NCBI GenBank assembly: GCA_903856085.1
Contig: CAIOAT010000013.1
Coordinates: 39,430 to 103,429, forward strand
DNA length: 64,000 nt
Direction: 5' to 3'
Origin: Candidatus Omnitrophota bacterium
GTDB lineage: Bacteria; Omnitrophota; Omnitrophia; Omnitrophales; Aquincolibacteriaceae
The translations under genes were made by a program, and so were the position numbers. Position 1 is the stretch's first letter, and every line of letters begins with the position of its first letter. The notes beneath the pieces are model-generated. The model was not told the origin of the DNA and did no database searches. It saw only the letters and a program-made list of their open reading frames with translations. This document shows, in pieces, positions 17,683 through 38,204 of this stretch.

Positions 17683-18988
17683 AAACTTCCTGATTTTCTG
17701 TCTTACACTTTTCGTTTCATTTTTGCCATTTGCTCAGTCCCGTGAAAGCACTTCCCCTGTCCCTGCGGCTGAAACAGATTCTCTTTCCCTGGAAGAATGC
17801 TACCACCTCGCCCTTGTCCAAAGCGAAATCGTGGGCATCCAGAAAGAAGCCATCTCCCGCGCCACGGCGCAAATATTCAATGCGGCAAGCCAGGGACTCG
17901 GCAATGTGGATTTCATCATTGATCGCACGTTTCAGGATGGCCAAAGCGGCAACTTGAGTGTGAGTAGTCCGTCTGGAAGCGCCCCAGTGAGTTCTAACGT
18001 ACACGAAAGCAAATTCACGATCAGCCAGCCGCTTTTCCAGGGTTTTAAGGCTATCGGCGCTTTGACGGGCGCCGGAAGCTATAAACAGGAGCAAACGGAA
18101 GCATGGATCCGCGCCAAGGAGCTTCTTTATACGGATGTGGCTCGCGCTTTTTATAACGTCCTGCGCTATGAGAAAGAGATCGAGATCAACCAAGGCATTC
18201 GCGAACTTCTTCAGGAACGAATTAAAGAGCTGGAAGGGCGCGAAAAAATCGGCCGCTCCCGTGTAAGCGAAGTGATCACGGCCAAAACCAATCTTAAAAT
18301 ACTTGAGGCGGACCTGGCCGCCTCTCAGGGAGCCCTTGCCACGGTCCGTTATATGTTGGAATTCCTAACCGGAACCGAACTTGGGGAGCGCAAACTTGAA
18401 GAAGAAACCTCGGAAGAGGTCTCATCGCAAACGCTTACCGAGCATCTCAAAATGGCCGCGACACGATCCGACGTTAAAGCCGCGGAACAAGCGGTCAAGA
18501 CCGCTTGGCGCGGCATCCTGGTCGCCCAAAGCGGATTCTGGCCTACGCTCACACTCAATCACAATCAATACATGCGCCGCGAAGGCACTTTAGCAAATCT
18601 GGATTGGGACACGCTTTTCAGGTTCGACGTCCCTCTTTTCTCAGGCGGTGAGACCATCGGACAGGTAAAAGATTCCGTAAGCATCCTAAAACAGAAAAAA
18701 CTTTCTTTTACTCTCGCCAGACGCCAGGCCGAACTCGATATCAAGCAAAGCTATCAGATCTGGCTTTCTGCTAAAGAAACAAATGCTCTCTTAATGGAGG
18801 CGGTCCGAGATGCCCAGAAAAATTACGAGATCCAGTCCGAGGAATACACCCGCAGTCTCGTCAGCAATCTGGATGTCCTCGCAGCCCTGGAATCTCTTCA
18901 TAATGCCCGGCAGCGCCAGAACCTGACCTATTATGTAATGAAACAAGATGAGGCGGCCTTCCGGGTCGCCGTCGGAGAAGTGTCATGA
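17672..18988 (+). CDS. TolC-like outer membrane efflux protein (outer membrane factor)
   Basis: Signal peptide and two OEP repeats (LSLEECYHLALVQSEIVGIQKE...; ...AAEQAVKTAWRGILVAQSGFWPTLTL). It overlaps the RND permease gene by 4 nt. Confidence 0.8.
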   Translation: MRTRNFLIFCLTLFVSFLPFAQSRESTSPVPAAETDSLSLEECYHLALVQSEIVGIQKEAISRATAQIFNAASQGLGNVDFIIDRTFQDGQSGNLSVSSPSGSAPVSSNVHESKFTISQPLFQGFKAIGALTGAGSYKQEQTEAWIRAKELLYTDVARAFYNVLRYEKEIEINQGIRELLQERIKELEGREKIGRSRVSEVITAKTNLKILEADLAASQGALATVRYMLEFLTGTELGERKLEEETSEEVSSQTLTEHLKMAATRSDVKAAEQAVKTAWRGILVAQSGFWPTLTLNHNQYMRREGTLANLDWDTLFRFDVPLFSGGETIGQVKDSVSILKQKKLSFTLARRQAELDIKQSYQIWLSAKETNALLMEAVRDAQKNYEIQSEEYTRSLVSNLDVLAALESLHNARQRQNLTYYVMKQDEAAFRVAVGEVS

Positions 18989-21900
18989 ATTTATCTGAAA
19001 TCTCGATCAAGAACCCAGTGTTTGCGTGGATGCTCATGATTGGACTTATGGTGTTCGGCATCCTCGGTTGCCACGGGATGGGCGTTGGGCAGATGCCGGA
19101 CGTGGACTTCCCTGTTTTAAATGTCAGTGTTAACTGGGAAGGTGCTGCGCCCGAGGTCATGGAAAGCGACGTGGTCGATATCATTGAAGATTCTGTCATG
19201 GGAATCCAGGGATTGCGCGATATCTCCTCCTCTTCCGCGGAGGGAAAAGCCAATATTAAGCTCGAATTCGATCTTGACCGCGACATTGACGTCGCACTTC
19301 AAGAAGTCCAAAGCAAGATCTCTGAGGCCCGCCGGCGCCTTCCAATCGACATCGATCCCCCCATCATTCAGAAATTCAATCCTGAAGACCAGCCGATCAT
19401 GTACCTTGCGGTCACATCACGTCTTCCTTTAAAAGATCTGATGGACTTTGTCGACCGGAGCATTAAGGACCGTTTCAAGACCGTTCCAGGCGTCGGCGAT
19501 GTCTTTTTGGGCGGATTCTTGGAACGGAATCTCCGTGTATGGATCGACACGAAAAAACTTCTCGCATACCAACTAACGGTCGAAGACGTGATCAACGCCA
19601 TTCAAAAAGAGCATGTGGAAATTCCCGCCGGAAGGCTTGAAACCCAGGAAAAAGAATCTTCCGTACGCGCGATGGGCGAAGCGCGGTCCGTTGAGGAATT
19701 TGAAAAGATCGTCATCAACAATCGTAACGGCTTACCTATTTATCGTCCGATCAAATTAAGCGAGGTGGCCCGGATTGAAGACGGTCTTGCCGACCTCCGG
19801 AGAATGTCGCGGGCGATGGGAGAGCCGGCCGTCGGCCTCGGGATCCGGAAACAACGCGGCGCAAATACCGTCGCCGTGGCCGAAGGCGTCAAAAAACGGC
19901 TCGCGGAGATCCAGCGTGATCTTCCTTCGGATTTTTCGATCGGGATCAATTTTGACTCAAGCAAATTCATCAGCGACAGTGTTCATGAACTTTACCTGAC
20001 CCTCATCCTCTCCGCCGTTCTCACGTCCCTGGTATGCTGGCTCTTTTTGGGTTCATGGAGCTCGAACATGAATATCCTGCTCGCGATCCCGACCTCAATC
20101 CTCGGAACTTTCATCGTGATGAAGTTCGCGGGTTTCACCATGAACATATTCACATTACTCGGACTCTCGCTCGCCATCGGCATCGTGGTAGACGATGCCA
20201 TCATGGTGCTTGAAAATATCGTCCGCCATCGAGAACTGGGCGAAGGCAAGATCGATGCCGCTTTGAAAGGTTCCAAAGAAATCACATTCGCAGCCTTGGC
20301 GGCCACACTCGCCATCGCGGCGATCTTCCTTCCCGTGGTTTACATGAAGGGTATTATTGGAAAATTCTTCCTCCAGTTCGGCATTACGATCACCGCCGCC
20401 GTCTTTCTTTCGCTCTTGGAGGCTTTAACGCTCGCCCCCATGCGATGTTCACAATTACTTGAGATAGGAGAAAGAAAGACGCGATTCGGGAGAGCTTTTG
20501 AACACGGCATGGTTAAACTGAATGAATTCTACGGCAAAAGCCTTGTAGTGGCACTCAAGCATAAGTGGAAGGTGCTTCTATTTTCTTTTATTTTTTGTGT
20601 CGCCTCTTATATGATCACGGCCCCTTTGCTCAGAAAAGAATTCGTCCCGGCACAGGACCAAAGCATGTTCCTGGCCGCCCTGGAAACACCCATCGGCTCC
20701 TCGATTTATTTCACCAATGAGCGTTTCAAAGCCGTCGAGGAATATGTCATAAAGCACCCTTGCGTCAAACGCTACTTTTGCGTTATCGGTGTGCGCATGG
20801 GCGGGATGGAAGGCGAAGTGAATGCGGGCATGCTTTTCGTAACTCTCAAAGATCCGAAAAACCGCCCCTATGATCCAAAGCTTGGACGGCGTCCGACTCA
20901 ACAGGACGTGATGGACAAGTTCCGAACCGACATCAATAAGATTCCGAACGTCAAAGCAATCATGCAAGACCTTTCCACTCGCGGATTCTCTGCCACACGC
21001 GGGTATCCCATCGAGTTCTCGATTCGCGGACCTAATTGGGACAAATTAGTTGAGTACGCCGGAACGATCCAGGATAAGATGAAAAAGAGCCCGTACTTTC
21101 AGGATGTTGACAGCGATTACCGATCCGGCGTCACCGAAGTACGGATCACGCCGGATCGTGATAAGGCTTTCGGTCATGCCGCGAGCGTCGAAACGATCGC
21201 GAGAACCGTGAACGCCATGATCGGTGGCGAACGCGTAGCGAAATATACAAAGGATGGAAGGCGTTATGACGTCCGGGTCAAGGCAACCGATAAGGACCGG
21301 CAGACCATCGAGAATATCAAGGATCTTTGGATATGGAATAACCGCGGAGAGATGGTCCAACTCGTGGATGTTGTCAAAATTACGGAACGTCCCAGTCTCC
21401 TGAGCATCACCCGCCAAGGACGCGAACGCGCCATCAGCCTTTACGCGAGTGCAACCACCGGGAAATCGCTTGCTACGGCCATTCAGGAAGCCCAAAAGAT
21501 CGCGGAAGAGACGCTCCCTGACCCCTACCGTGTTGTTTTCAGCGGCTCGAGCCAAACTTTCAAGGAATCGATGATGAGCCTGATCTTCGCACTTGTCATG
21601 GGCATCATCGTCGCCTACATGATCCTGGCTTCCCAATTCAATCACATCATCCATCCGATCACGGTCCTCCTGGCGCTCCCGTTCAGTCTCGTGGGCGCTT
21701 TCTGGGCGCTTCTGATCGCAAACCAATCTCTCAGCATCTTCAGTTTCATCGGCCTTTTGCTTTTGATGGGAATCGTGAAAAAGAACTCCATTTTGCTCGT
21801 GGATTTCACCAACCAGATGAGAGCTCGAGGCATGAATACTTACGACGCACTCCTCACGGCCTGCCCGATCCGGCTACGCCCGATCATTATGACCTCGGTC

Positions 21901-22137
21901 TCCACCATCGCGGCCGCAGTCCCACCCGCCCTAGCGCTCGGTCCCGGCGCGGAAACCCGTATCCCGATGGGCGTCGCGATCATCGGCGGCGTGCTGGTCT
22001 CAACGCTTTTGACACTGTTCGTGGTACCAGCCTTCTATCTGGTGTGCGACAAGTTGGAACAAAAAGGATCGTTCGGCGCGGTCGTTGATGCTTTCAAATC
22101 CAAGCTTTCGGTCCTTTTTCAAAAAAAACAGGCCTGA
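18985..22137 (+). CDS. RND (HAE1, AcrB/CzcA-like) inner-membrane efflux permease
   Basis: 1050 aa with 12 transmembrane helices and two large periplasmic loops. Conserved AcrB features include MNLSEISIKNPVFAWMLMIGL and GLSLAIGIVVDDAIMVLENI. Confidence 0.9.
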   Translation: MNLSEISIKNPVFAWMLMIGLMVFGILGCHGMGVGQMPDVDFPVLNVSVNWEGAAPEVMESDVVDIIEDSVMGIQGLRDISSSSAEGKANIKLEFDLDRDIDVALQEVQSKISEARRRLPIDIDPPIIQKFNPEDQPIMYLAVTSRLPLKDLMDFVDRSIKDRFKTVPGVGDVFLGGFLERNLRVWIDTKKLLAYQLTVEDVINAIQKEHVEIPAGRLETQEKESSVRAMGEARSVEEFEKIVINNRNGLPIYRPIKLSEVARIEDGLADLRRMSRAMGEPAVGLGIRKQRGANTVAVAEGVKKRLAEIQRDLPSDFSIGINFDSSKFISDSVHELYLTLILSAVLTSLVCWLFLGSWSSNMNILLAIPTSILGTFIVMKFAGFTMNIFTLLGLSLAIGIVVDDAIMVLENIVRHRELGEGKIDAALKGSKEITFAALAATLAIAAIFLPVVYMKGIIGKFFLQFGITITAAVFLSLLEALTLAPMRCSQLLEIGERKTRFGRAFEHGMVKLNEFYGKSLVVALKHKWKVLLFSFIFCVASYMITAPLLRKEFVPAQDQSMFLAALETPIGSSIYFTNERFKAVEEYVIKHPCVKRYFCVIGVRMGGMEGEVNAGMLFVTLKDPKNRPYDPKLGRRPTQQDVMDKFRTDINKIPNVKAIMQDLSTRGFSATRGYPIEFSIRGPNWDKLVEYAGTIQDKMKKSPYFQDVDSDYRSGVTEVRITPDRDKAFGHAASVETIARTVNAMIGGERVAKYTKDGRRYDVRVKATDKDRQTIENIKDLWIWNNRGEMVQLVDVVKITERPSLLSITRQGRERAISLYASATTGKSLATAIQEAQKIAEETLPDPYRVVFSGSSQTFKESMMSLIFALVMGIIVAYMILASQFNHIIHPITVLLALPFSLVGAFWALLIANQSLSIFSFIGLLLLMGIVKKNSILLVDFTNQMRARGMNTYDALLTACPIRLRPIIMTSVSTIAAAVPPALALGPGAETRIPMGVAIIGGVLVSTLLTLFVVPAFYLVCDKLEQKGSFGAVVDAFKSKLSVLFQKKQA

Positions 22138-22190: not shown

Positions 22191-22808
22191 ATGCCTATGG
22201 AACTTATCCTTCAGCCGCTTTTGGCAGGACTCTCGGTTGGGGCCTTTTGCCTCACCTACTGTTTTCCCTTCATAGGCACTTTCTTCGGCGCAGAAGAACG
22301 CAGCCCCAAGAAAAACTTTTTGATCCTTCTTGAATTTCTGGGCGGACGTCTGGCGGGTTATCTTTGTTTCGGCCTGCTCGTGGGCTACCTCGGCGAGAAG
22401 TTCGACCCCCGGTGGCTACGCCGCGCCACGGATATTTCTTTCATCGTTCTCTCCCTTGCACTTTTCTTTTATCTTCTCGGCCTTGTACGTGAAAAAAACT
22501 TCTGCCGACCCCCGAAATTTCTTAAAGCCCGGAGCCCCATGCTCATGGGTTTTTTCATGGGAATCAATCTTTGCCCTCCGTTTTTGCTGTCCGTCACTTA
22601 TGTTTTTTCCCGGCATAGCGCCCTTTATGGCATAGCTTACTTCGCGCTTTTCTTTCTCGCGAGCTCCCTCTATTTTCTACCAACCGTCTTTGTAGGGCTT
22701 GCTTCCAGAGCTAAGGAATTCCGAACCATGGCACGCACAAGCGGCTTTCTGGTAGCCACCTTGTTTTTTATTTACGGGATCTATTCGCTTGTTCATAATA
22801 GGCTTTAG
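22191..22808 (+). CDS. integral membrane protein (about 6 transmembrane helices) with intramembrane CxxxC and CPP cysteine motifs; possibly a CcdA/DsbD_2-like thiol-disulfide transporter
   Basis: CLTYCFPF lies in TM1 and NLCPPFLL in TM4. There is no close family match I can assert. It sits 10 nt upstream of the radical SAM gene. Confidence 0.45.
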   Translation: MPMELILQPLLAGLSVGAFCLTYCFPFIGTFFGAEERSPKKNFLILLEFLGGRLAGYLCFGLLVGYLGEKFDPRWLRRATDISFIVLSLALFFYLLGLVREKNFCRPPKFLKARSPMLMGFFMGINLCPPFLLSVTYVFSRHSALYGIAYFALFFLASSLYFLPTVFVGLASRAKEFRTMARTSGFLVATLFFIYGIYSLVHNRL

Positions 22809-22817
22809 CATGGAGAC

Positions 22818-23960
22818 TTGAGGATGAATATCACGCAACTGCTTAAAAAGATTCTTTCTTTTTTCTTCCTAGCGATCGTTCTTGGAGCAACGCTTCTTTT
22901 TATTTACCGACGTGAAAATTCCGTCCGCGCGGATGACTCCCTGGACAAGACAGGCTTTCATGAAGCCCGCTATTATGAACCCCTGCCCCAAAAGAGGGTC
23001 CAGTGCTTCCTCTGCCCCAATGAGTGCACCTTCTCATCCGGCCAGTTTGGCGCTTGCAAGGCTCGCAAAAATATCGATGGAAAACTTTATTCCATGGTCT
23101 ACGGCAAGATCGCGACCTCGCACGTGGATCCGATCGAGAAAAAACCATTCTTCCATTTCCTCCCGAGCAGCACGGCTTTCTCCATCGCCACAACCGGCTG
23201 CAACATGCACTGCCTTTTTTGTCAGAACTGGGAGATCTCGCAGGCCTTCCCCGAGGATGTGCCAACCCAAGCCGCAACGCCTGACAAGGTTGTAGCCCAA
23301 GCGCTCGCCAACGGCGCCCGATCCATCGCCTTCACCTACAACGAACCTGTGATTGCTTATGAATATATGCTGGATATCGCGAAGCTCGCCAAAAGCAAGG
23401 GGCTCAAGACCGTGGTTGTCTCAAGCGGCTACATCGAGGAAGAACCGCTCAAGGAACTTTTGAAATACATCGATGCGTACAAAGTCGACCTCAAAGCCTT
23501 CAATGAAAAATTCTACCGGAAGTTTACAGGCGGTCGGCTGGCGTCGGTCCTGGAAACCCTCAAGACAATCAAGCAAAGCGGCGTATGGCTGGAGATCGTG
23601 AACCTGATCGTCCCCGGGGAAAATGATAGCGATGACGAACTCCGCGCCATGGCGCACTGGATCCACTCAAATTTGGGCGACAGCGTACCGCTCCATTTCA
23701 GCCGGTTCTTTCCACAATACAAACTCAAGAACCTTCCGCCTACGCCTCCTGAAACGCTCATTCGCGCACGCAAGATCGCTATGGACGAAGGACTCAAATA
23801 CGTTTATACCGGAAATATCGCTTATCCCGAAGGCGAGGCGACTTATTGCCCGGAATCGAAGGAAAAAGCTATTGTCCGCCAAGGTTATTTTGTTATCGCG
23901 AACCACCTGAAAAATGGAGCTTGCCCCGATGGAGAACAAATCCCCGGCGTCTGGAAATAG
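22818..23960 (+). CDS. AmmeMemoRadiSam-system radical SAM enzyme (PFL-activase-like), with N-terminal transmembrane anchor
   Basis: CNMHCLFCQNWEIS is the CxxxCxxC motif. VQCFLCPNECTFSSGQFGACKARKNIDGKLY is the typical N-terminal cysteine-rich region of AmmeMemoSam radical SAM enzymes. The N-terminus has a transmembrane helix (LLKKILSFFFLAIVLGATLLFIY). Confidence 0.8.
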   Translation: MRMNITQLLKKILSFFFLAIVLGATLLFIYRRENSVRADDSLDKTGFHEARYYEPLPQKRVQCFLCPNECTFSSGQFGACKARKNIDGKLYSMVYGKIATSHVDPIEKKPFFHFLPSSTAFSIATTGCNMHCLFCQNWEISQAFPEDVPTQAATPDKVVAQALANGARSIAFTYNEPVIAYEYMLDIAKLAKSKGLKTVVVSSGYIEEEPLKELLKYIDAYKVDLKAFNEKFYRKFTGGRLASVLETLKTIKQSGVWLEIVNLIVPGENDSDDELRAMAHWIHSNLGDSVPLHFSRFFPQYKLKNLPPTPPETLIRARKIAMDEGLKYVYTGNIAYPEGEATYCPESKEKAIVRQGYFVIANHLKNGACPDGEQIPGVWK

Positions 23961-25530
23961 CCTGCGCACACCCGGTGTGTACGGCGGATGGATTACGATC
24001 GCATTACTATCACTGGCGTTCACGTTCTCCACGCCTGGTGAAAAAAATGATGGGAACAGAGATGCGAACGTCCGAAGGGCAGCTGTGGCCGGAAAATTTT
24101 ATCCCAGGGACAGAGCTACGCTTGAGAACTACGTGGACACCCTGCTCCTCCAAGCCAACCCGCCAGCGATCAAAGATCCGATCCGCGCGATCATGGTCCC
24201 GCATGCTGGTTATGTTTTTTCAGGCCCGGTCGCGGCTTATGCTTACAAGGAGCTTGAAGGCCGCGACATTAGCACGGTGATCTTGATCGGCAACAGCCAC
24301 CACCATTATTTCAATGGCATCGCGGTCTACGCCAAAGGTGCCTTTGAAACACCACTGGGTCTTGTTCCCGTCGACGAGACGCTCGCCGCAAAACTCCTGG
24401 CGGCCGACCCTGCCATCATCGACCGCCCCGATATTCACGAAGGCGATCACGTACTGGAAGTGCAACTTCCCTTCCTCCAGCGCATTCTGAAAGATTTCAA
24501 AATAGTCCCCATTCTCTTCAGTGGCGACTCGCCGGAACTTGCCAGAAAACTCGCCCGCATCCTTCCCCCGTTCCTGAATGACAAAACCTTGATCGTTGCG
24601 AGCACCGATATGTCTCATTATCCACCCTATGCCGATGCCACGGCCTCGGACCAAAAAACGCTCGACGCCATTCTGACCGGAAAAATGGATGATCTAGACG
24701 CTACTTTAAAAACGCTCGACACTGAACATGTCCCTCAGGCTGAAACTTTCCTCTGCAGTCCCAGCGGCGTACGCGTCGCCATGCTCCTCGCACAAAGTTC
24801 CGGAAACATTAGCCCCGTTCTTTTGAAATATGCAAATTCGGGAGATTCACCGGCCGGCGATAAAACCCGTGTGGTCGGCTACGGCGCCGTCGCCTTCATC
24901 GCAAAGCAAGCCGCGGGACCTGCCGCACCTCCGGCCCCTGGCGAAGAAAAGAAAAGTGCGGCAGATAAAGAAAAAATAACCTCTTCGGAAAAGGAAGAAC
25001 TCCTGAAGATCGCACGCTCCACCGTGGAAAGTTACGTTCGAACTGGAAAAATCCCTGAATTTTCTCCCGCTTCCCCGGCCCTCAAACAGCCGCTAGGTGC
25101 TTTTGTAACACTGAAAGAAAACGGCCAACTTCGCGGCTGTATTGGCCGCTTCGATCCTTCCGGACCTCTTTATCTCACCATCCAGCAAATGGCCGTGTCC
25201 GCAGCCTCGCAAGATCCACGGTTCAGACCTGTTGGCTCCAATGAACTCGGACGGTTGGAATACGAGATCTCGGTTTTAAGCCCGTTGAGAAAAGTTCGTG
25301 CGGCAGATGAGATCACACTTGGCGAACACGGCGTTCAAGTCTCGAAAGGATTTCATCATGGCGTTTTCCTGCCGCAAGTAGCAACGGAGACGGGATGGAG
25401 CAAAGACGCTTTCCTCAGCGAACTTTGCTCTCAGAAAGCCGGATTGCCAAGAGACTGCTGGAAAGATCCAGCGGTGAGTTTACAGATCTTTACGGCGGAC
25501 GTCTTTTCGGAAGAGAAGCAGCAGCATTAG
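23914..25530 (+). CDS. fusion protein: MEMO1-like domain (AmmeMemoRadiSam system protein B) + AMMECR1 domain (protein A), with N-terminal transmembrane/signal segment
   Basis: The N-terminal half (IMVPHAGYVFSGPVAAYAYKEL, IGNSHHHYF, IVASTDMSHYPP) is MEMO1/DUF52-like. After an AGPAAPPAPGEEKK linker, the C-terminal half is AMMECR1 (LGAFVTLKENGQLRGCIGRF, HGVFLPQVATETGW). It overlaps the radical SAM gene. Confidence 0.8.
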   Translation: MELAPMENKSPASGNSLRTPGVYGGWITIALLSLAFTFSTPGEKNDGNRDANVRRAAVAGKFYPRDRATLENYVDTLLLQANPPAIKDPIRAIMVPHAGYVFSGPVAAYAYKELEGRDISTVILIGNSHHHYFNGIAVYAKGAFETPLGLVPVDETLAAKLLAADPAIIDRPDIHEGDHVLEVQLPFLQRILKDFKIVPILFSGDSPELARKLARILPPFLNDKTLIVASTDMSHYPPYADATASDQKTLDAILTGKMDDLDATLKTLDTEHVPQAETFLCSPSGVRVAMLLAQSSGNISPVLLKYANSGDSPAGDKTRVVGYGAVAFIAKQAAGPAAPPAPGEEKKSAADKEKITSSEKEELLKIARSTVESYVRTGKIPEFSPASPALKQPLGAFVTLKENGQLRGCIGRFDPSGPLYLTIQQMAVSAASQDPRFRPVGSNELGRLEYEISVLSPLRKVRAADEITLGEHGVQVSKGFHHGVFLPQVATETGWSKDAFLSELCSQKAGLPRDCWKDPAVSLQIFTADVFSEEKQQH

Positions 25531-27726
25531 AAGAGCGTTTACAGCACCCAGAAGTATGAGTGTCTGAGGAACTCCCAAGATCGGAATGAAAAATCCAGCG
25601 GTCAGAAGAGCGCCCAGCGCCGAGCCCCCAAGATCCGCCGCGTAAACACTCCCGAGCCGGTTGCCTTCACCCCGGACGAGATAAAGCCGGTTCGCAAATG
25701 GAAAGGCAGCCCCAGCGATAAGACCGCCCCCGAGCGCCATGCCTAAAAAAACAAACTGATATTCTTCACCCAGAAAAAACCCTTTTGAAAAGATCCTCAC
25801 GCAACCTTTGATGATCAAAAAGAAAAATACTGCGTTCATTCCATGAAGTCCTGCAAGTCCAAACCTCTCGGGAATCTTTTTGAGGCCCAACGCTACCCAG
25901 GTCCCCGCCCCGAGTCCCACCATGAACACCGTGATCACCCAGGCAAGCCGGTAGTAAAGATCTCCAAACGCCGCCTGAAAAAGATAGATCACCACGATCT
26001 CAAACGCCATCAAAGAAAAACCGGCCGTCCCCATACTAACGAACGCGAGTTTCCTTATGCCCTTCTGCGTCCCCCCGGAGAAAGCAACAAGGAACAGGAC
26101 CAGGCATAAACCCACCGTCAGAATGACCGGGAAAGGAAGGGTCGACCCGAAAAAGAAGGCTTTCGTGATCTTGGGATCGAATTGACTGAGCCACTGGAGA
26201 AATTCGAAATAACAAGTGCGCGGCCGGAGGTCTGTGTTCTTTGTCTTCCATATCGAATTACTGAAAGCCGTCGAGACCCGCCCCACGCGATCGTTCGTAA
26301 GCCGGTAGCGGATCTGATCCGCCGTTACAAAATCGGACCGTATCTGCCGTTCGGAGAGCCGATCGATCATTTCCTTAGAACCCAAAGACGACGCCTTCCC
26401 CGCAAAAGCCAAAAAGAAAAGCGTGTCCTCAGGAAGCGCCTTCACGGAAGGAAAAACCTGACTGAGCGTCGCGAAGATCGAGCTACCAAGCCGTTCCAGT
26501 TCTGGCGTCATGATGTTCGCCGCAAACGTAATATGGGTGGCAAAAACGCCACCGACCGAAAGATGGGAACGGATAGAACGGAAGAATTGCTCTGTGTAAT
26601 TTCGATTGATGAGCACCGAAGCTGGATCCGGAAAATTCGCAATAATCACATCAAATTTCTCTCCTTCTCGTTTAAGAAAATCCCTCGGATCCGCAGCCTC
26701 AAGCTGCACCCGGGGATCGCGAAGCGTCCCTTGGAGATCCTGCGGCAGAAACCCGCGGGCGATCTTCAAAAACTCAGGGTCCAGCTCGACTGCGCGAACC
26801 TCTCGGGGGCCATGTTTTAAGATCTCCTGCAAAGGCCCGTTGAATCCGGTCCCAAGGAGCAGGACCTTTTGAGGTCCCGGATGCGAAAGCATCGGAAAAT
26901 GGACCAGATACTCACTCGCGAGGGCTTCCCGATCCGCGCCCAGAAGCAGGCCGCTCTGATAGAAATTATATTGCGCCCCTAGCTGCGTGACAGACACATT
27001 GCCGTGGACGGTATTCTCCGTCAGGACAAGCCTTTCGTTCGGGAACCGTAACTGAGACGTCCGTTGCTGCAAAGAAGCGCTGCTCATAAAAAGCCCTGCC
27101 GAAAAAAGAATCGCTGTAAAAACAAAAAGCCCCAGAATCTTTTTCTTGAGAAAAATATGAAAAATCCCGCAGGCAGTCACGAGATTTAAAACTGCGAGAA
27201 TCGCTGCCACCCGAAATTCATTAGTGAAAACAAGCACAAAACTAAAAACGGTCCCGCCCACGATGAATCCAAGGCATTCCCAGAAATACGCCCACCCCAC
27301 CGTTCGCGCCGATTCCCCCTCCGACGTTTGAGATAACTGGGCTCGTGCCGCAACCGCGAATTGCATCCCCAGTACCCCGCATAGAGGCACAAGAACAGCC
27401 AGCGAATAGAGGAGAGAGGGAATAAATTCCGGAAGCGCCCCTGCCGGAGTCCCAAGAACCAACTTGCCGGAGCGTATAAGGATGATCGTGAAAGGAAAAA
27501 GGAAGGCTATAAGAACGTGGCAGATTGCAAGCATCCGAAAAGCTTTTTTTGCATCGCAGGAGAATCTTGAGCCTAGCGCAGTCCCCAAGAGCCAACAGAA
27601 GAGAACCCAGCCGATGAAAAACTCATTGGCGTAGAAACTCATCGCAAATTCCCGGATCACCACCACCTGGGAAATAAGCGACGAAAACCCGAGAATAGCA
27701 AAGGAGAGGATAAGGATCTTTTTCAT
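25480..27726 (-). CDS. polytopic membrane protein fused to a spermidine synthase-like (polyamine aminopropyltransferase) domain
   Basis: Roughly seven N-terminal and four C-terminal transmembrane helices flank a SpeE-like core (VLLLGTGFNGPLQEIL...VRAVELDPEFLKIARGFLP...FDVIIANFPDP). Confidence 0.75.
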   Translation of the reverse strand: MKKILILSFAILGFSSLISQVVVIREFAMSFYANEFFIGWVLFCWLLGTALGSRFSCDAKKAFRMLAICHVLIAFLFPFTIILIRSGKLVLGTPAGALPEFIPSLLYSLAVLVPLCGVLGMQFAVAARAQLSQTSEGESARTVGWAYFWECLGFIVGGTVFSFVLVFTNEFRVAAILAVLNLVTACGIFHIFLKKKILGLFVFTAILFSAGLFMSSASLQQRTSQLRFPNERLVLTENTVHGNVSVTQLGAQYNFYQSGLLLGADREALASEYLVHFPMLSHPGPQKVLLLGTGFNGPLQEILKHGPREVRAVELDPEFLKIARGFLPQDLQGTLRDPRVQLEAADPRDFLKREGEKFDVIIANFPDPASVLINRNYTEQFFRSIRSHLSVGGVFATHITFAANIMTPELERLGSSIFATLSQVFPSVKALPEDTLFFLAFAGKASSLGSKEMIDRLSERQIRSDFVTADQIRYRLTNDRVGRVSTAFSNSIWKTKNTDLRPRTCYFEFLQWLSQFDPKITKAFFFGSTLPFPVILTVGLCLVLFLVAFSGGTQKGIRKLAFVSMGTAGFSLMAFEIVVIYLFQAAFGDLYYRLAWVITVFMVGLGAGTWVALGLKKIPERFGLAGLHGMNAVFFFLIIKGCVRIFSKGFFLGEEYQFVFLGMALGGGLIAGAAFPFANRLYLVRGEGNRLGSVYAADLGGSALGALLTAGFFIPILGVPQTLILLGAVNALLMLLLLFRKDVRRKDL

Positions 27727-37781: not shown

Positions 37782-38093
37782 CTACTTCAGCGTATTTCCG
37801 GGTTTTTTCGGGGCTTCATCCTTCGAACGAGGCGTTGCCTTGGCGTTGGACTTGAACTGGACTGAAAGATCCGCATTGATCTTGGCATAAGTCGGGTCCA
37901 TATCCTCAGATTCGACGATCGAGCCAACCGGACATTCCGCCGCACAAGCGCCGCATGAAATACAGGTCCCCGGATCGATCACCATAAAATCTTTCCCCTG
38001 ATACGTTCCTGGATAGATCGCTTCGGTGGGACAAACACCGGCGCAAAGACCGTAGCGTTCGCCGTGACATTTCTCAGTAATTACATAAGCCAT
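37782..38093 (-). CDS. fdxA: 7Fe-type ferredoxin (FdxA-like; one [3Fe-4S] and one [4Fe-4S] cluster)
   Basis: MAYVITEKCHGERYGLCAGVCPTEAIYPG...DPGTCISCGACAAECPVGSI. The ATG at 38093 has AAGGAGA 7 nt upstream; the ORF track extends to 38174. Confidence 0.85.
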   Translation of the reverse strand: MAYVITEKCHGERYGLCAGVCPTEAIYPGTYQGKDFMVIDPGTCISCGACAAECPVGSIVESEDMDPTYAKINADLSVQFKSNAKATPRSKDEAPKKPGNTLK

Positions 38094-38204
38094 GCTGTGA
38101 TTCTCCTTAGTGGATGTTGGTTTTGAAAGAGGCCGTATTTTAACCGCTCCCCCTCCCAGCGTCAATGCTTTCAAACCCGCAACACCCCCTACGAGGTGGC
38201 GAGG

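What the first reader, a model, noticed from the sequence alone, without database searches (positions are those of the whole stretch)
22191..25530. Membrane-tethered AmmeMemoRadiSam system with a fused MEMO1-AMMECR1 protein and a partner membrane protein carrying cysteine motifs
What the sequence shows:
- A radical SAM enzyme with the CNMHCLFCQN motif and the N-terminal cysteine-rich region typical of AmmeMemoSam enzymes.
- A single 538 aa protein in which a MEMO1-like domain is fused through a Pro/Ala linker to an AMMECR1 domain (LRGCIGRF).
- A six-helix membrane protein directly upstream with CxxxC in TM1 and CPP in TM4, resembling a CcdA/DsbD-type thiol-disulfide transporter.
- Predicted N-terminal transmembrane or signal segments on both the radical SAM protein and the fusion protein.

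Why it matters: the three-part AmmeMemoRadiSam system (AMMECR1, MEMO1 and a radical SAM enzyme) is widespread but has no known function, and the three are usually separate soluble proteins. The membrane tethering, the B-A fusion and the co-located membrane protein that may carry redox equivalents across the membrane could all help clarify what the system does.
Basis: partly seen in the sequence, partly recalled or inferred. Interest (0 to 1): 0.72.

Follow-up and report, generated by a model that had tools for sequence, protein, structure and literature searches.

The report
Radical SAM system predicted outside cytoplasm
This Omnitrophota locus is a real AmmeMemoRadiSam system whose enzymes carry export signals and sit next to a CcdA-like membrane electron carrier, which suggests that a radical SAM enzyme, a class thought to work only in the cytoplasm, acts here on the outer face of the cell membrane.

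Summary
22191-25530 encodes a six-helix DsbD_2 protein, a TIGR04337 radical SAM (rSAM) enzyme and a Memo-AMMECR1 fusion (TIGR04336 + TIGR04335), all above curated cutoffs and arranged as one operon.

The interpretation needs revising in three ways.
1. The fusion is common: at least 597 species-level genomes across many phyla.
2. The N-terminal hydrophobic segments are best read as export signals, not tethers. Fusion homologs carry AxA sites, lipoboxes or anchors. rSAM orthologs carry an N-in/C-out anchor (117 of 120), Sec signals, or Tat signals (21 loci). Natural fusions place the rSAM domain directly after DsbD_2 TM6, after flavinylatable FMN_bind domains, or after NapH/NosR-like modules.
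3. The DsbD_2 link is real. All 49 metagenomic loci with at least 45% identity have the rSAM gene downstream. It occurs in 14 of 15 Sec/anchor-type loci and 0 of 21 Tat-type loci. Its best structural match is CcdA.

A fourth partner was missed: the convergent 14-helix protein at 25480-27726, whose degenerate spermidine-synthase-like domain is predicted to face outward.

Best reading: an extracytoplasmic AmmeMemoRadiSam variant with a dedicated trans-membrane reductant supply. Localisation is predicted, not shown. How SAM and Fe-S clusters would reach the enzyme is unexplained.

The parts
22191..22808 (+). DsbD_2-family (CcdA-like) six-helix membrane protein, 205 aa. It has C20-x3-C24-x-P26 in TM1, C128-P-P in TM4 and an invariant C105 in the K/R-rich TM3-TM4 loop. 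Both termini are predicted to lie outside.
22812..22815 (+). GGAG ribosome-binding site, 8 nt upstream of the rSAM ATG at 22824.
   Evidence: Sequence read directly.
22824..23960 (+). AmmeMemoRadiSam radical SAM enzyme, 378 aa (alternative TTG start at 22818).
   Evidence: TIGR04337 392.7 bits against a cutoff of 220. PflA and NrdG models score far below their cutoffs. Radical_SAM 83.9 bits.
22824..22916 (+). N-terminal signal-anchor of the rSAM enzyme (MNITQLLKK + 20 uncharged residues + YRRE). Predicted N-in/C-out.
   Evidence: Conserved in 120 of 120 homologs. The charge-difference rule predicts N-in/C-out in 117 of 120, mean delta -2.73. Orthologs carry Sec or Tat signals at the same position. 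In the natural fusions P0361 and P0364 this helix is replaced by DsbD_2 TM6.
23929..25530 (+). Memo-AMMECR1 (protein B-protein A) fusion, 533 aa (alternative ATG at 23914). Its start overlaps the rSAM gene by 32 nt.
   Evidence: TIGR04336 247.3 bits and TIGR04335 177.9 bits. Pfam Memo 186.8 and AMMECR1 183.6 bits. GGAG 9 nt upstream.
23929..24036 (+). N-terminal export signal or signal anchor of the fusion (basic n-region, WITIALLSLAFTF h-region, S-L-A/F-T-F-S candidate cleavage region).
   Evidence: 103 of 110 homologs have a hydrophobic 12-mer scoring at least 1.8 before the Memo domain. Across clades the forms are AxA sites, lipoboxes (33) or uncleaved anchors. The same is seen across phyla.
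24073..24897 (+). Memo (protein B) domain with invariant PHAG, GNSH, S-x-D-x-S-H-Y and Cys276 (533-aa numbering).
24997..25506 (+). AMMECR1 (protein A) domain with LRGCIG, preceded by an Ala/Pro/Lys-rich linker (24898-24996).
25480..27726 (-). It is convergent with the fusion gene and overlaps its 3' end by 51 nt.
   Evidence: Spermine_synth 83.3 bits; NF037959 42.9 bits against a cutoff of 40. Third most conserved neighbour family, in 31 of 85 loci. Found only with signal-bearing fusions, 31 of 67 against 0 of 16. Present in 33 of 38 metagenomic DsbD_2 loci that are long enough to show it. It lies in the same operon in Bacteroidota, for example L029.
26140..27078 (-). Spermidine-synthase-like adenosyl-binding domain (aa 217-529) of the fourth partner. 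It is predicted to face outward and lacks the canonical catalytic Asp.
   Evidence: Alignment-averaged topology: 18.7 K/R in even loops against 8.1 in odd loops, and the domain is loop 7. Best PDB match is Thermus SpeE 3anx/1uir, E 1e-22. E314 and P368 are invariant and D346 is kept in 24 of 27, but the first Asp of D-x-x-D-P is N, G or S (D in only 1 of 27) and the GGG(D/E)G acid is lost.

Best explanation
The locus encodes an envelope-facing (extracytoplasmic) variant of the AmmeMemoRadiSam system, together with its own trans-membrane support proteins.

**Shown by computation**
- The three canonical families are present.
- The genes form a tight operon.
- The DsbD_2 gene is a conserved, specific partner of this rSAM clade and is sometimes fused to it.

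**Inferred from signals, charge rules and domain fusions**
- The Memo-AMMECR1 fusion is exported by an N-terminal Sec-type signal or anchor.
- The rSAM enzyme is held in the membrane by an N-in/C-out signal anchor, so its catalytic domain is on the outer face, in the same compartment as Memo-AMMECR1.

**Inferred by homology and context**
- The DsbD_2 protein works like CcdA. It would take reducing equivalents from the cytoplasm, probably through thioredoxin and its cytoplasmic-loop Cys105, and pass them through the TM1 CxxxC and TM4 CPP cysteines to the outside.
- Its most likely job is to keep reduced the many cysteines of proteins exported unfolded by Sec. These are the Fe-S ligands of the rSAM enzyme and the catalytic Cys residues of AMMECR1 and Memo. 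CcdA does the same for apocytochrome c.
- This would explain why DsbD_2 accompanies Sec/anchor-type rSAMs but never Tat-type rSAMs, which would be exported already folded and loaded with cofactor.
- In related lineages NapH/NosR-like and FMN_bind modules, fused or adjacent, would supply the single electrons needed for SAM cleavage.

**Speculative**
- The convergent 14-helix protein, with its outward-facing degenerate spermidine-synthase-like domain, would handle a SAM-derived adenosyl ligand outside the cytoplasm.

The chemical reaction and the substrate of the system remain unknown.
For: **Family membership:**

**Operon structure:**

**Export of the fusion protein**
- 103 of 110 homologs have signal-like N-termini, of three interchangeable kinds: AxA sites, 33 lipoboxes and uncleaved anchors. 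The same is seen across phyla.

**rSAM domain outside the cytoplasm**
- 117 of 120 homologs are predicted N-in/C-out.
- Orthologs that score 349-379 bits on TIGR04337 carry Sec signals or S/T-R-R-x-F-L-K Tat motifs: 21 Tat, 5-6 Sec and 9 anchor types among 56 loci. TIGR01409 passes its cutoff in 2 of the 10 tested.
- 22 of the top 150 rSAM cluster representatives have Tat-like N-termini.
- In the natural DsbD_2::rSAM fusions P0361/P0362, P0364 and P0379 (Kiritimatiellota) there is no helix between TM6 and the rSAM domain.
- TM + FMN_bind + rSAM fusions (P0366, P0374) carry the D-x-x-[ST]-G-A-T flavinylation motif. FMN_bind and NapH-like modules are described as extracytosolic electron-transfer devices in PMC8238504.
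- In P0368, a NosR-like module + TM + rSAM, the charge pattern places the rSAM domain outside.
- P0377 is a signal peptide followed by Memo-AMMECR1-rSAM in one chain.
- All 36 exported-type rSAMs sit next to a signal-bearing fusion.

**DsbD_2 as a specific redox partner**
- 5 of 5 neighbourhoods and 49 of 49 metagenomic loci at 45% identity or more.
- A second DsbD_2 subfamily, in a different gene order, occurs in other Omnitrophota and Planctomycetes.
- Present in 14 of 15 Sec/anchor-type loci and 0 of 21 Tat-type loci, Fisher p = 4e-9.
- Both subfamilies share an invariant C-x3-C-x-P in TM1 and C-x-P in TM4.
- DsbD_2::Fer4_5 fusions occur in L155 and L156, and P0371 combines DsbD_2 + FMN_bind + Fer4_5 + rSAM.
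Against: - No localisation has been measured. All topology rests on heuristics, because SignalP, DeepTMHMM and TOPCONS were not available.
- To my knowledge there is no known pathway that assembles Fe-S clusters outside the cytoplasm for Sec-exported proteins, and no known SAM pool there. The window's rSAM has KK rather than RR and does not match the Tat motif.
- In Prevotella-type loci the fusion carries a signal but the adjacent rSAM does not. The two proteins therefore need not share a compartment.
- The anchor of triple fusion P0363 has no clear charge bias.
- No thioredoxin-like acceptor, which is the usual CcdA partner, is present in the locus.
- Thiol-disulfide exchange cannot itself reduce an rSAM [4Fe-4S] cluster.
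- DsbD_2 relatives include permeases. The second subfamily's best NCBIfam similarity is ArsG at 38-41 bits, far below its cutoff of 200.
- The Fisher tests ignore phylogenetic non-independence, since the Sec/anchor types are all from PVC-group lineages.
Confidence: 0.5

Rival explanations
1. Inner-face tether. The N-terminal helices only anchor the rSAM enzyme, and perhaps the fusion protein, to the cytoplasmic face of the membrane. SAM, ferredoxin or flavodoxin, and Fe-S assembly are available there. The system would act on a membrane lipid or on a substrate handed over by the membrane partners.
For: - To my knowledge, every characterised radical SAM enzyme works in the cytoplasm or an equivalent reducing compartment.
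- The window's rSAM has no RR motif.
- The Prevotella-type rSAMs next to signal-bearing fusions have no signal.
- Anchor P0363 has an ambiguous charge bias.
Against: - The charge rule predicts N-in/C-out in 117 of 120 homologs.
- Orthologs have cleavable Sec signals or Tat signals at the same position.
- Fusions place the rSAM domain after DsbD_2 TM6 with no extra helix, directly after a flavinylatable FMN_bind domain, or behind a signal peptide together with Memo-AMMECR1.
- Lipoboxes on fusion homologs are incompatible with a cytoplasmic location for Memo-AMMECR1.
Confidence: 0.2
2. DsbD_2 is a permease rather than an electron carrier. It would move a small molecule across the membrane for the exported enzymes: the substrate, the product, a metal for the Memo site, or even SAM. 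Its cysteines would serve as ligand-binding residues.
For: - NCBI names for the homologs are 'sulfite exporter TauE/SafE family protein'.
- The second subfamily's best NCBIfam similarity is the organoarsenical efflux permease ArsG.
- No thioredoxin-like acceptor is in the locus.
- CPx motifs bind soft metals in P-type ATPases (my own knowledge).
- An exported rSAM would need SAM to be supplied.
Against: - The cysteine arrangement, one Cys-Pro motif in TM1 and one in TM4 of a 3+3 helix protein, is the CcdA/DsbD signature, and the best structural match is CcdA.
- The protein is repeatedly fused to, or adjacent to, dedicated electron-transfer modules (Fer4_5/NapH-like, FMN_bind) and to the rSAM enzyme itself.
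- It is absent from all 21 Tat-type loci, which would need a substrate or SAM permease just as much.
- The ArsG score is far below its cutoff (38-41 bits against 200).
Confidence: 0.2
3. Split-compartment maturation. The rSAM enzyme acts in the cytoplasm, or during translocation at the membrane, on the Memo-AMMECR1 precursor or on a lipid-linked intermediate. Only the product is exported. DsbD_2 and the Spd-like protein would serve the exported Memo-AMMECR1 enzyme.
For: - Prevotella-type loci combine a cytoplasmic-type rSAM with a signal-bearing fusion.
- The rSAM is related to protein-activating enzymes, with weak PflA and YjjW similarity.
Against: - It cannot explain the Tat and Sec signals on rSAM orthologs.
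- It cannot explain the single-chain proteins in which the rSAM domain follows extracytoplasmic domains or a signal peptide.
Confidence: 0.08
4. The gene neighbourhood is inherited synteny with no functional meaning.
For: Most linked loci come from one phylum, and the Fisher tests are not phylogenetically corrected.
Against: - The linkage persists down to 45% identity of DsbD_2 while the flanking genes differ.
- Two DsbD_2 subfamilies occur in two different gene orders.
- In-frame fusions occur in at least three lineages.
Confidence: 0.02

Closest known systems
AmmeMemoRadiSam system (TIGR04335 protein A/AMMECR1, TIGR04336 protein B/Memo, TIGR04337 radical SAM enzyme)
   Same: All three families are present above curated cutoffs and are adjacent and co-oriented. 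The rSAM enzyme has the CxxxCxxC motif and the N-terminal CxxCPxxC motif. The AMMECR1 LRGCIG motif and the Memo His/Asp/Cys site are conserved.
   Different: - Both polypeptides carry N-terminal export or anchor signals that lie outside the family models.
- Proteins B and A are fused, which is common.
- The locus adds a CcdA-like DsbD_2 protein and a 14-helix spermidine-synthase-like protein.
- I found no description of an exported variant in the searchable literature. Burroughs et al. 2019 (J Biol Chem 294:10211), the main comparative study of Memo contexts, could not be read.
CcdA / DsbD-beta transmembrane thiol-disulfide electron transporters
   Same: - Pfam DsbD_2 membership.
- Six helices with both termini predicted outside.
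- One conserved Cys-Pro motif in TM1 and one in TM4.
- It would serve Sec-exported, cysteine-rich metalloprotein precursors, as CcdA serves apocytochrome c (my own knowledge).
   Different: - TM1 has two cysteines (CxxxC) and there is an extra invariant cysteine in a cytoplasmic loop.
- The window protein does not hit PF02683 DsbD_TM or any NCBIfam model.
- No thioredoxin-like acceptor or cytochrome c maturation genes are nearby.
- The apparent clients are an rSAM enzyme and Memo-AMMECR1.
NapH/NosR-type FMN_bind + Fer4_5 extracytosolic electron-transfer modules (PMC8238504)
   Same: In sister lineages these modules are fused to the same rSAM clade or sit in the same locus (P0367, P0368, P0371, L008, L155, L156). 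This implies that the membrane partners supply electrons outward.
   Different: The window itself has no such module. Only DsbD_2 is present. The 2021 survey of flavinylated systems does not mention radical SAM or Memo partners.
Polyamine aminopropyltransferase SpeE / fused MFS-spermidine synthase (NF037959, PRK03612)
   Same: The central domain of the 748-aa neighbour matches Spermine_synth and solved SpeE structures (E 1e-22). It keeps the Gly-rich loop and the ribose- and adenine-binding acidic residues.
   Different: - It scores far below the equivalog cutoffs: TIGR00417 87 bits against 250 and PRK03612 161 against 472.
- The catalytic Asp and the dcSAM gatekeeper acid are lost.
- The domain is inserted between two 7-helix bundles and is predicted to face outward.
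- It is tightly associated with exported AmmeMemoRadiSam loci.

Membership tests
AmmeMemoRadiSam system | The radical SAM enzyme scores above the TIGR04337 cutoff and not as a PflA/NrdG activase. | tested here: met
   392.7 bits against a cutoff of 220. TIGR02493 scores 71.4 against 231.75 and TIGR02495 50 against 131.
AmmeMemoRadiSam system | Protein B (Memo-like, TIGR04336) and protein A (AMMECR1, TIGR04335) are present and adjacent to the rSAM gene. | tested here: met
   247.3 bits (cutoff 26) and 177.9 bits (cutoff 99) in one fused ORF that overlaps the end of the rSAM gene.
AmmeMemoRadiSam system | CxxxCxxC radical SAM cluster motif. | tested here: met
   CNMHCLFC is read directly in the translation. 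Radical_SAM Pfam scores 83.9 bits.
AmmeMemoRadiSam system | Soluble cytoplasmic proteins. This is the usual, implicit expectation and not a formal criterion. | tested here: not met
   Both proteins have conserved N-terminal hydrophobic signals or anchors. 90 of the top 150 rSAM representatives have none.
CcdA/DsbD transmembrane electron transporter | Membership of the DsbD/CcdA TM-domain families (PF13386 / PF02683). | tested here: met
   PF13386 scores 64.4 bits against 24.9. PF02683 is not hit by the window protein, but the sister subfamily hits it at 35-37 bits against 27.1.
CcdA/DsbD transmembrane electron transporter | Six TM helices (3+3) with the N- and C-termini outside. | tested here: inconclusive
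   Six helices, with 13 K/R inside against 6 outside. The same bias is seen in 5 sister proteins. This is a heuristic only, with no dedicated predictor or experiment.
CcdA/DsbD transmembrane electron transporter | A conserved redox cysteine next to proline in TM1 and another in TM4. | tested here: met
   C20/C24-x-P26 and C128-x-P130 are invariant across both subfamilies.
CcdA/DsbD transmembrane electron transporter | CcdA-like fold. | tested here: inconclusive
CcdA/DsbD transmembrane electron transporter | A thioredoxin-fold acceptor outside the cytoplasm, or a cytochrome c maturation context. | tested here: not met
   None in the window locus, and none among the conserved neighbour families of 85 loci.
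CcdA/DsbD transmembrane electron transporter | Thiol-disulfide electron transfer across the membrane. | not testable with these tools
   Needs redox-state trapping or reconstitution.
Tat (twin-arginine) substrates | S/T-R-R-x-F-L-K motif before the hydrophobic region of the rSAM enzyme. | tested here: not met
   The window protein has LLKKILSF. Among its 120 homologs the two residues before the core are KK in 81, KR in 16, RK in 7 and RR in 4. Orthologs in other phyla do have the motif.
Polyamine aminopropyltransferase (SpeE), for the 748-aa neighbour | Scores above the equivalog cutoff and has the catalytic D-x-x-D-P and GGG(D/E)G motifs. | tested here: not met
   TIGR00417 scores 87.3 bits against 249.55. 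The window protein has NFPDP and GTGFNG. Across the family the first Asp is present in only 1 of 27.
Fused MFS/spermidine synthase (NF037959), for the 748-aa neighbour | Scores above the subfamily cutoff. | tested here: met
   42.9 bits against 40, which is marginal. Orthologs L029 and L016 score 36.9 and 35.6, below the cutoff.

The most novel reading that the evidence does not exclude
A whole radical-SAM pathway operates outside the cytoplasm. A sizeable clade of TIGR04337 enzymes, including this one, would be the first radical SAM enzymes to work in the periplasm or on the outer face of the membrane. Electrons would be delivered across the membrane by DsbD_2, NapH-like and flavinylated FMN_bind modules. 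SAM, or a SAM-derived adenosyl ligand, would be provided or handled by the 14-helix protein whose degenerate spermidine-synthase-like domain faces outward. Memo-AMMECR1 would then act on a cell-envelope substrate.
Probability: 0.35. Interest if true: 0.9.

Novelty: new variant of a known kind. Interest (0 to 1): 0.78.

Why it matters
AMMECR1 and MEMO1 are conserved from bacteria to humans and are linked to disease, yet their biochemical function and that of their radical SAM partner are unknown.

This locus, and the roughly 165 related loci examined here, show a widespread variant in which the enzymes carry export signals. They are wired, by gene linkage and by natural fusions, to recognised trans-membrane electron-transfer modules. 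If the localisation is confirmed, three things follow:
1. It would overturn the assumption that radical SAM chemistry is confined to the cytoplasm.
2. It would point to a cell-envelope substrate for the system.
3. It would identify the electron-supply route, and possibly the SAM-supply route. This gives concrete, testable handles on a long-standing 'function unknown' system, including cultivable Bacteroidota with Tat-type versions.

Tried and rejected
- **PDB sequence searches** with the DsbD_2 profile and with a subfamily-B protein gave nothing even at E = 10. I therefore could not align the cysteines residue by residue to CcdA.
- **Burroughs et al. 2019** (J Biol Chem) could not be retrieved by DOI or PMC id. 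I recall that it links Memo contexts to nucleotide-base and isoprenoid modification, but this is unverified.
- **Literature searches** for AmmeMemoRadiSam, AMMECR1 + radical SAM, AMMECR1 + MEMO1 + bacteria, periplasmic or Tat radical SAM, and flavinylation + radical SAM returned no functional or localisation study. The one Tat paper that mentions a radical SAM protein was irrelevant.
- **First domain-boundary regex** for the fusion was too loose for distant sequences. I redid it anchored on PHAG.
- **Single-sequence TM picking** for the 748-aa protein gave 10-16 helices. I replaced it with an alignment-averaged profile.
- **Triple fusion P0150** (900 aa) was rejected as evidence. It is a singleton whose junction shows the frame switch expected from an indel in the 32-nt gene overlap.
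- **L143** looked like a DsbD_2-rSAM fusion, but the long ORF is in a different frame from the DsbD_2 gene.
- **Cytochrome c domain idea.** I considered that the Acidobacteriota rSAM extensions were cytochrome c domains because of a CxxCH motif. The motif sits at the position of the family's CxxCP motif, so this was not adopted.
- **NapH-like, FMN_bind, Tat-motif or CxxCH proteins elsewhere in the window:** only an ordinary ferredoxin at about 37.9 kb.

Full report
**1. What is in the window**

Between 22191 and 25530 there are three co-oriented ORFs.
- **ORF 1** (22191-22808, 205 aa) matches Pfam DsbD_2 at 64.4 bits (cutoff 24.9) and no NCBIfam model.
- **ORF 2** (378 aa from ATG 22824) matches TIGR04337, the AmmeMemoRadiSam radical SAM enzyme, at 392.7 bits (cutoff 220).
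- **ORF 3** (533 aa from ATG 23929) matches TIGR04336 (protein B, Memo; 247.3 bits) and TIGR04335 (protein A, AMMECR1; 177.9 bits) in one chain.

The junctions look like an operon. The DsbD_2 stop is 15 nt from the rSAM ATG. A GGAG lies 8 and 9 nt upstream of the two ATGs. The rSAM and fusion genes overlap by 32 nt. Source names on the closest database homologs place the organism in Candidatus Omnitrophota.

**2. The fusion is ordinary**

A scan of one genome per species found at least 597 relatives of the fused protein. They occur in Bacteroidota, Planctomycetota, Acidobacteriota, Desulfobacterota, Chloroflexota, Omnitrophota and others. All of the top 120 database hits are also fusions. The B-A fusion therefore carries no novelty by itself.

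**3. The N-terminal segments are conserved and behave as export signals**

*Fusion protein.* 103 of 110 homologs have a hydrophobic segment before the Memo domain. Its form changes between clades: the 'LSLAFTFS' type of the window's clade, classic AxA cleavage sites, 33 lipoboxes, and some uncleaved anchors. All of these forms imply the same topology, with the protein body outside the cytoplasm. The same holds across phyla in the 80 genome loci.

*rSAM enzyme.* All 120 close homologs have a 4-10-residue basic N-terminus, a ~20-residue uncharged core, and then Y/S-R-E. The charge-difference rule predicts N-in/C-out for 117 of 120.

*rSAM orthologs elsewhere.* Orthologs in other Omnitrophota and in Planctomycetes have cleavable Sec-type signals, for example '...LPNALA|DTP'. 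Orthologs in Bacteroidota, Acidobacteriota, Aminicenantes, Desulfobacterota, Ignavibacteria and others begin with S/T-R-R-x-F-L-K twin-arginine motifs. Ten of these were confirmed as TIGR04337 members (349-379 bits), and the curated Tat model TIGR01409 passed its cutoff on two of them.

*Tally.* Among 56 loci where the rSAM N-terminus could be judged, 21 were Tat-type, 9 anchor-type, 5-6 Sec-type and 20 had no signal. Every one of the 36 exported-type rSAMs sits beside a signal-bearing fusion. In an independent exhaustive search, 22 of the top 150 rSAM cluster representatives had Tat-like N-termini and 90 had none.

**4. Natural domain fusions support an outside location**

| Protein(s) | Architecture | Note |
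|---|---|---|
| L154 / P0361 | DsbD_2::rSAM, 543 aa | DsbD_2's sixth helix runs straight into the rSAM domain. The protein is recorded from several sources, and a 540/543-identical variant differs only in the linker |
| P0364, P0379 | DsbD_2::rSAM | Same design. P0379 is from a Kiritimatiellota MAG |
| P0366, P0374 | anchor + FMN_bind + rSAM | No helix between FMN_bind and the rSAM domain. P0374 is from Planctomycetota |
| P0367, P0368 | anchor + FMN_bind + 2×Fer4_5 (NapH/NosR-like) + one helix + rSAM | In P0368 the K/R pattern (inside loops 7, 3, 7, 6; outside loops 0, 2) puts the rSAM domain outside |
| P0371 | DsbD_2 + FMN_bind + Fer4_5 + rSAM | |
| P0377 | signal peptide + Memo-AMMECR1-rSAM in one chain | |
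| P0363 | anchor + rSAM-Memo-AMMECR1 | No internal hydrophobic segment |
| P0376, P0378 | rSAM behind a CBM_11-like domain or a beta-propeller | |

DsbD_2's termini are predicted to lie outside. In the DsbD_2::rSAM fusions this places the rSAM domain outside too.

All five FMN_bind domains carry the D-x-x-[ST]-G-A-T flavinylation motif. [quoted passage not shown]

All the fusion proteins tested are TIGR04337 members at 362-416 bits.

**5. The DsbD_2 protein is a specific partner and most likely a redox one**

*Linkage.* Five homologs, 67% down to 47% identical, all sit upstream of an rSAM gene and a fusion gene while the flanking genes differ. In a metagenome scan, all 49 assessable loci with at least 45% identity have the rSAM gene directly downstream. 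The linkage fades below about 40%.

*A second subfamily.* It passes both the DsbD_2 (71-76 bits) and DsbD_TM (35-37 bits) cutoffs and lies downstream of the fusion gene in other Omnitrophota and in Planctomycetes. Both subfamilies share an invariant C-x3-C-x-P in TM1 and C-x-P in TM4.

*Correlation with signal type.* One or other DsbD_2 subfamily is present in 14 of 15 loci with Sec- or anchor-type rSAMs and in 0 of 21 with Tat-type rSAMs (Fisher p = 4e-9). This test is not corrected for phylogeny. The pattern makes mechanistic sense: Sec exports unfolded chains whose cysteines must stay reduced, whereas Tat exports folded, cofactor-loaded proteins.

*Other redox context.* DsbD_2 is also fused to NapH-like Fer4_5 modules in L155 and L156, and a stand-alone NapH-like gene sits inside the locus of a 66%-identical relative, L008.

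*Caveats.* There is no thioredoxin-like acceptor in the locus. The superfamily includes permeases, with weak ArsG similarity. Thiol chemistry cannot itself reduce an rSAM cluster.

**6. A fourth partner was missed**

The convergent gene at 25480-27726 encodes a 748-aa protein with a Spermine_synth domain at 83 bits. NF037959, 'fused MFS/spermidine synthase', scores 42.9 against a cutoff of 40.

- **Conservation.** In unbiased clustering it is the third most conserved neighbour family, in 31 of 85 loci.
- **Association.** It occurs only with signal-bearing fusions (31 of 67 against 0 of 16, p = 3e-4). It is enriched with exported-type rSAMs (25 of 36 against 3 of 20, p = 2e-4).
- **Gene order.** In Bacteroidota it lies inside the operon in the order fusion, Spd-like, rSAM, for example L029. 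It is present in 33 of 38 sufficiently long metagenomic DsbD_2 loci, and is convergent in 32 of them, as in the window.
- **Topology.** An alignment-averaged profile of 27 members gives 7+7 helices with both termini inside and the ~310-aa domain outside.
- **Catalytic residues.** The domain is homologous to solved aminopropyltransferases (Thermus SpeE, E 1e-22) and keeps the adenosyl-binding residues. It has lost the catalytic Asp and the dcSAM gatekeeper acid. I read it as an adenosyl- or SAM-binding module rather than a true spermidine synthase. Any role in supplying SAM is speculation.

**7. Counter-evidence and limits**

- No dedicated signal or topology predictor and no experiment was available.
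- To my knowledge there is no known route for Fe-S cluster insertion into Sec-exported proteins, and no known extracytoplasmic SAM pool.
- The window's rSAM has KK, not RR.
- Prevotella-type loci pair a signal-bearing fusion with a signal-less rSAM, so co-localisation is not universal.
- Several fusion proteins are singletons, although P0361, P0366, P0374, P0376, P0377 and P0363 are replicated.
- The window has no NapH-like or FMN_bind gene, so a single-electron donor for this particular locus is not identified.

**8. Comparison with what is known, and verdict**

Membership of the AmmeMemoRadiSam system is met on every tested criterion. Membership of the CcdA/DsbD superfamily is met at the family and cysteine-motif level. 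It is inconclusive for fold and topology, not met for the usual thioredoxin-like partner, and untestable for activity.

I found no paper describing exported AmmeMemoRadiSam components or Tat-signal radical SAM enzymes in the searchable library. The one comparative paper most likely to have touched on this, Burroughs et al. 2019, could not be read.

I classify the locus as a new variant of a known kind. It would be surprising if confirmed: an extracytoplasmic radical SAM enzyme with its own trans-membrane redox supply.

Noticed in passing
L003:6630-6944 (also L002:6630-6950 and L004:6715-6975): Sister loci have an extra ORF of about 100 aa with three hydrophobic helices between the DsbD_2 and rSAM genes. 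It has no Pfam or NCBIfam match and is absent from the window, where the gap is only 15 nt.
   Followed up: partly
L039, L041, L049, L050, L065, L070, L087 (rSAM N-termini): Tat-type rSAMs of Acidobacteriota, Syntrophales and Ignavibacteria have long N-terminal extensions and a C-x2-C-H motif where other family members have C-x2-C-P-x2-C. I could not tell whether this is a heme-c-like site or only a variant set of cluster ligands.
   Followed up: no
L071, L075, L076, L078, L080, L085 (Prevotella and Prevotellaceae): The Memo-AMMECR1 fusion has a signal peptide, but the adjacent, shorter (~290 aa) rSAM enzyme has none. This mixed configuration argues that the partners need not share a compartment.
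   Followed up: partly
L008:8592-9527 (-); L155:4968-6257; L156:4950-6290: A close relative of the window locus has a NapH-like Fer4_5 gene between the fusion gene and the Spd-like gene. More distant loci encode DsbD_2::Fer4_5 fusion proteins upstream of the rSAM gene.
   Followed up: yes
P0376 (681 aa) and P0378 (919 aa): rSAM domains of this clade are fused behind an N-terminal anchor to a CBM_11-like domain or to a Reg_prop/PorZ-like beta-propeller. Both are domain types typical of cell-surface proteins.
   Followed up: partly
window 23929-23960 and 25480-25530: The conserved 'MEKKSPASGN' N-terminus of the fusion proteins is the alternative reading frame of the conserved rSAM C-terminus (DGEQIPGVWK), because the two genes overlap by 32 nt. 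The fusion gene and the convergent Spd-like gene overlap tail to tail by 51 nt.
   Followed up: yes
window 18985-22137 (+): The gene directly upstream is an RND efflux permease (ACR_tran 938.5 bits). It is not conserved next to the locus, except that L006 also has an RND permease gene a few kb upstream. It appears unrelated to the system.
   Followed up: partly
window 37782-38174 (-): A small ferredoxin-like ORF (CAAECPVG motif) is the only other protein with an Fe-S motif found by the motif scan of the window. It lies about 12 kb from the locus and no link was established.
   Followed up: no
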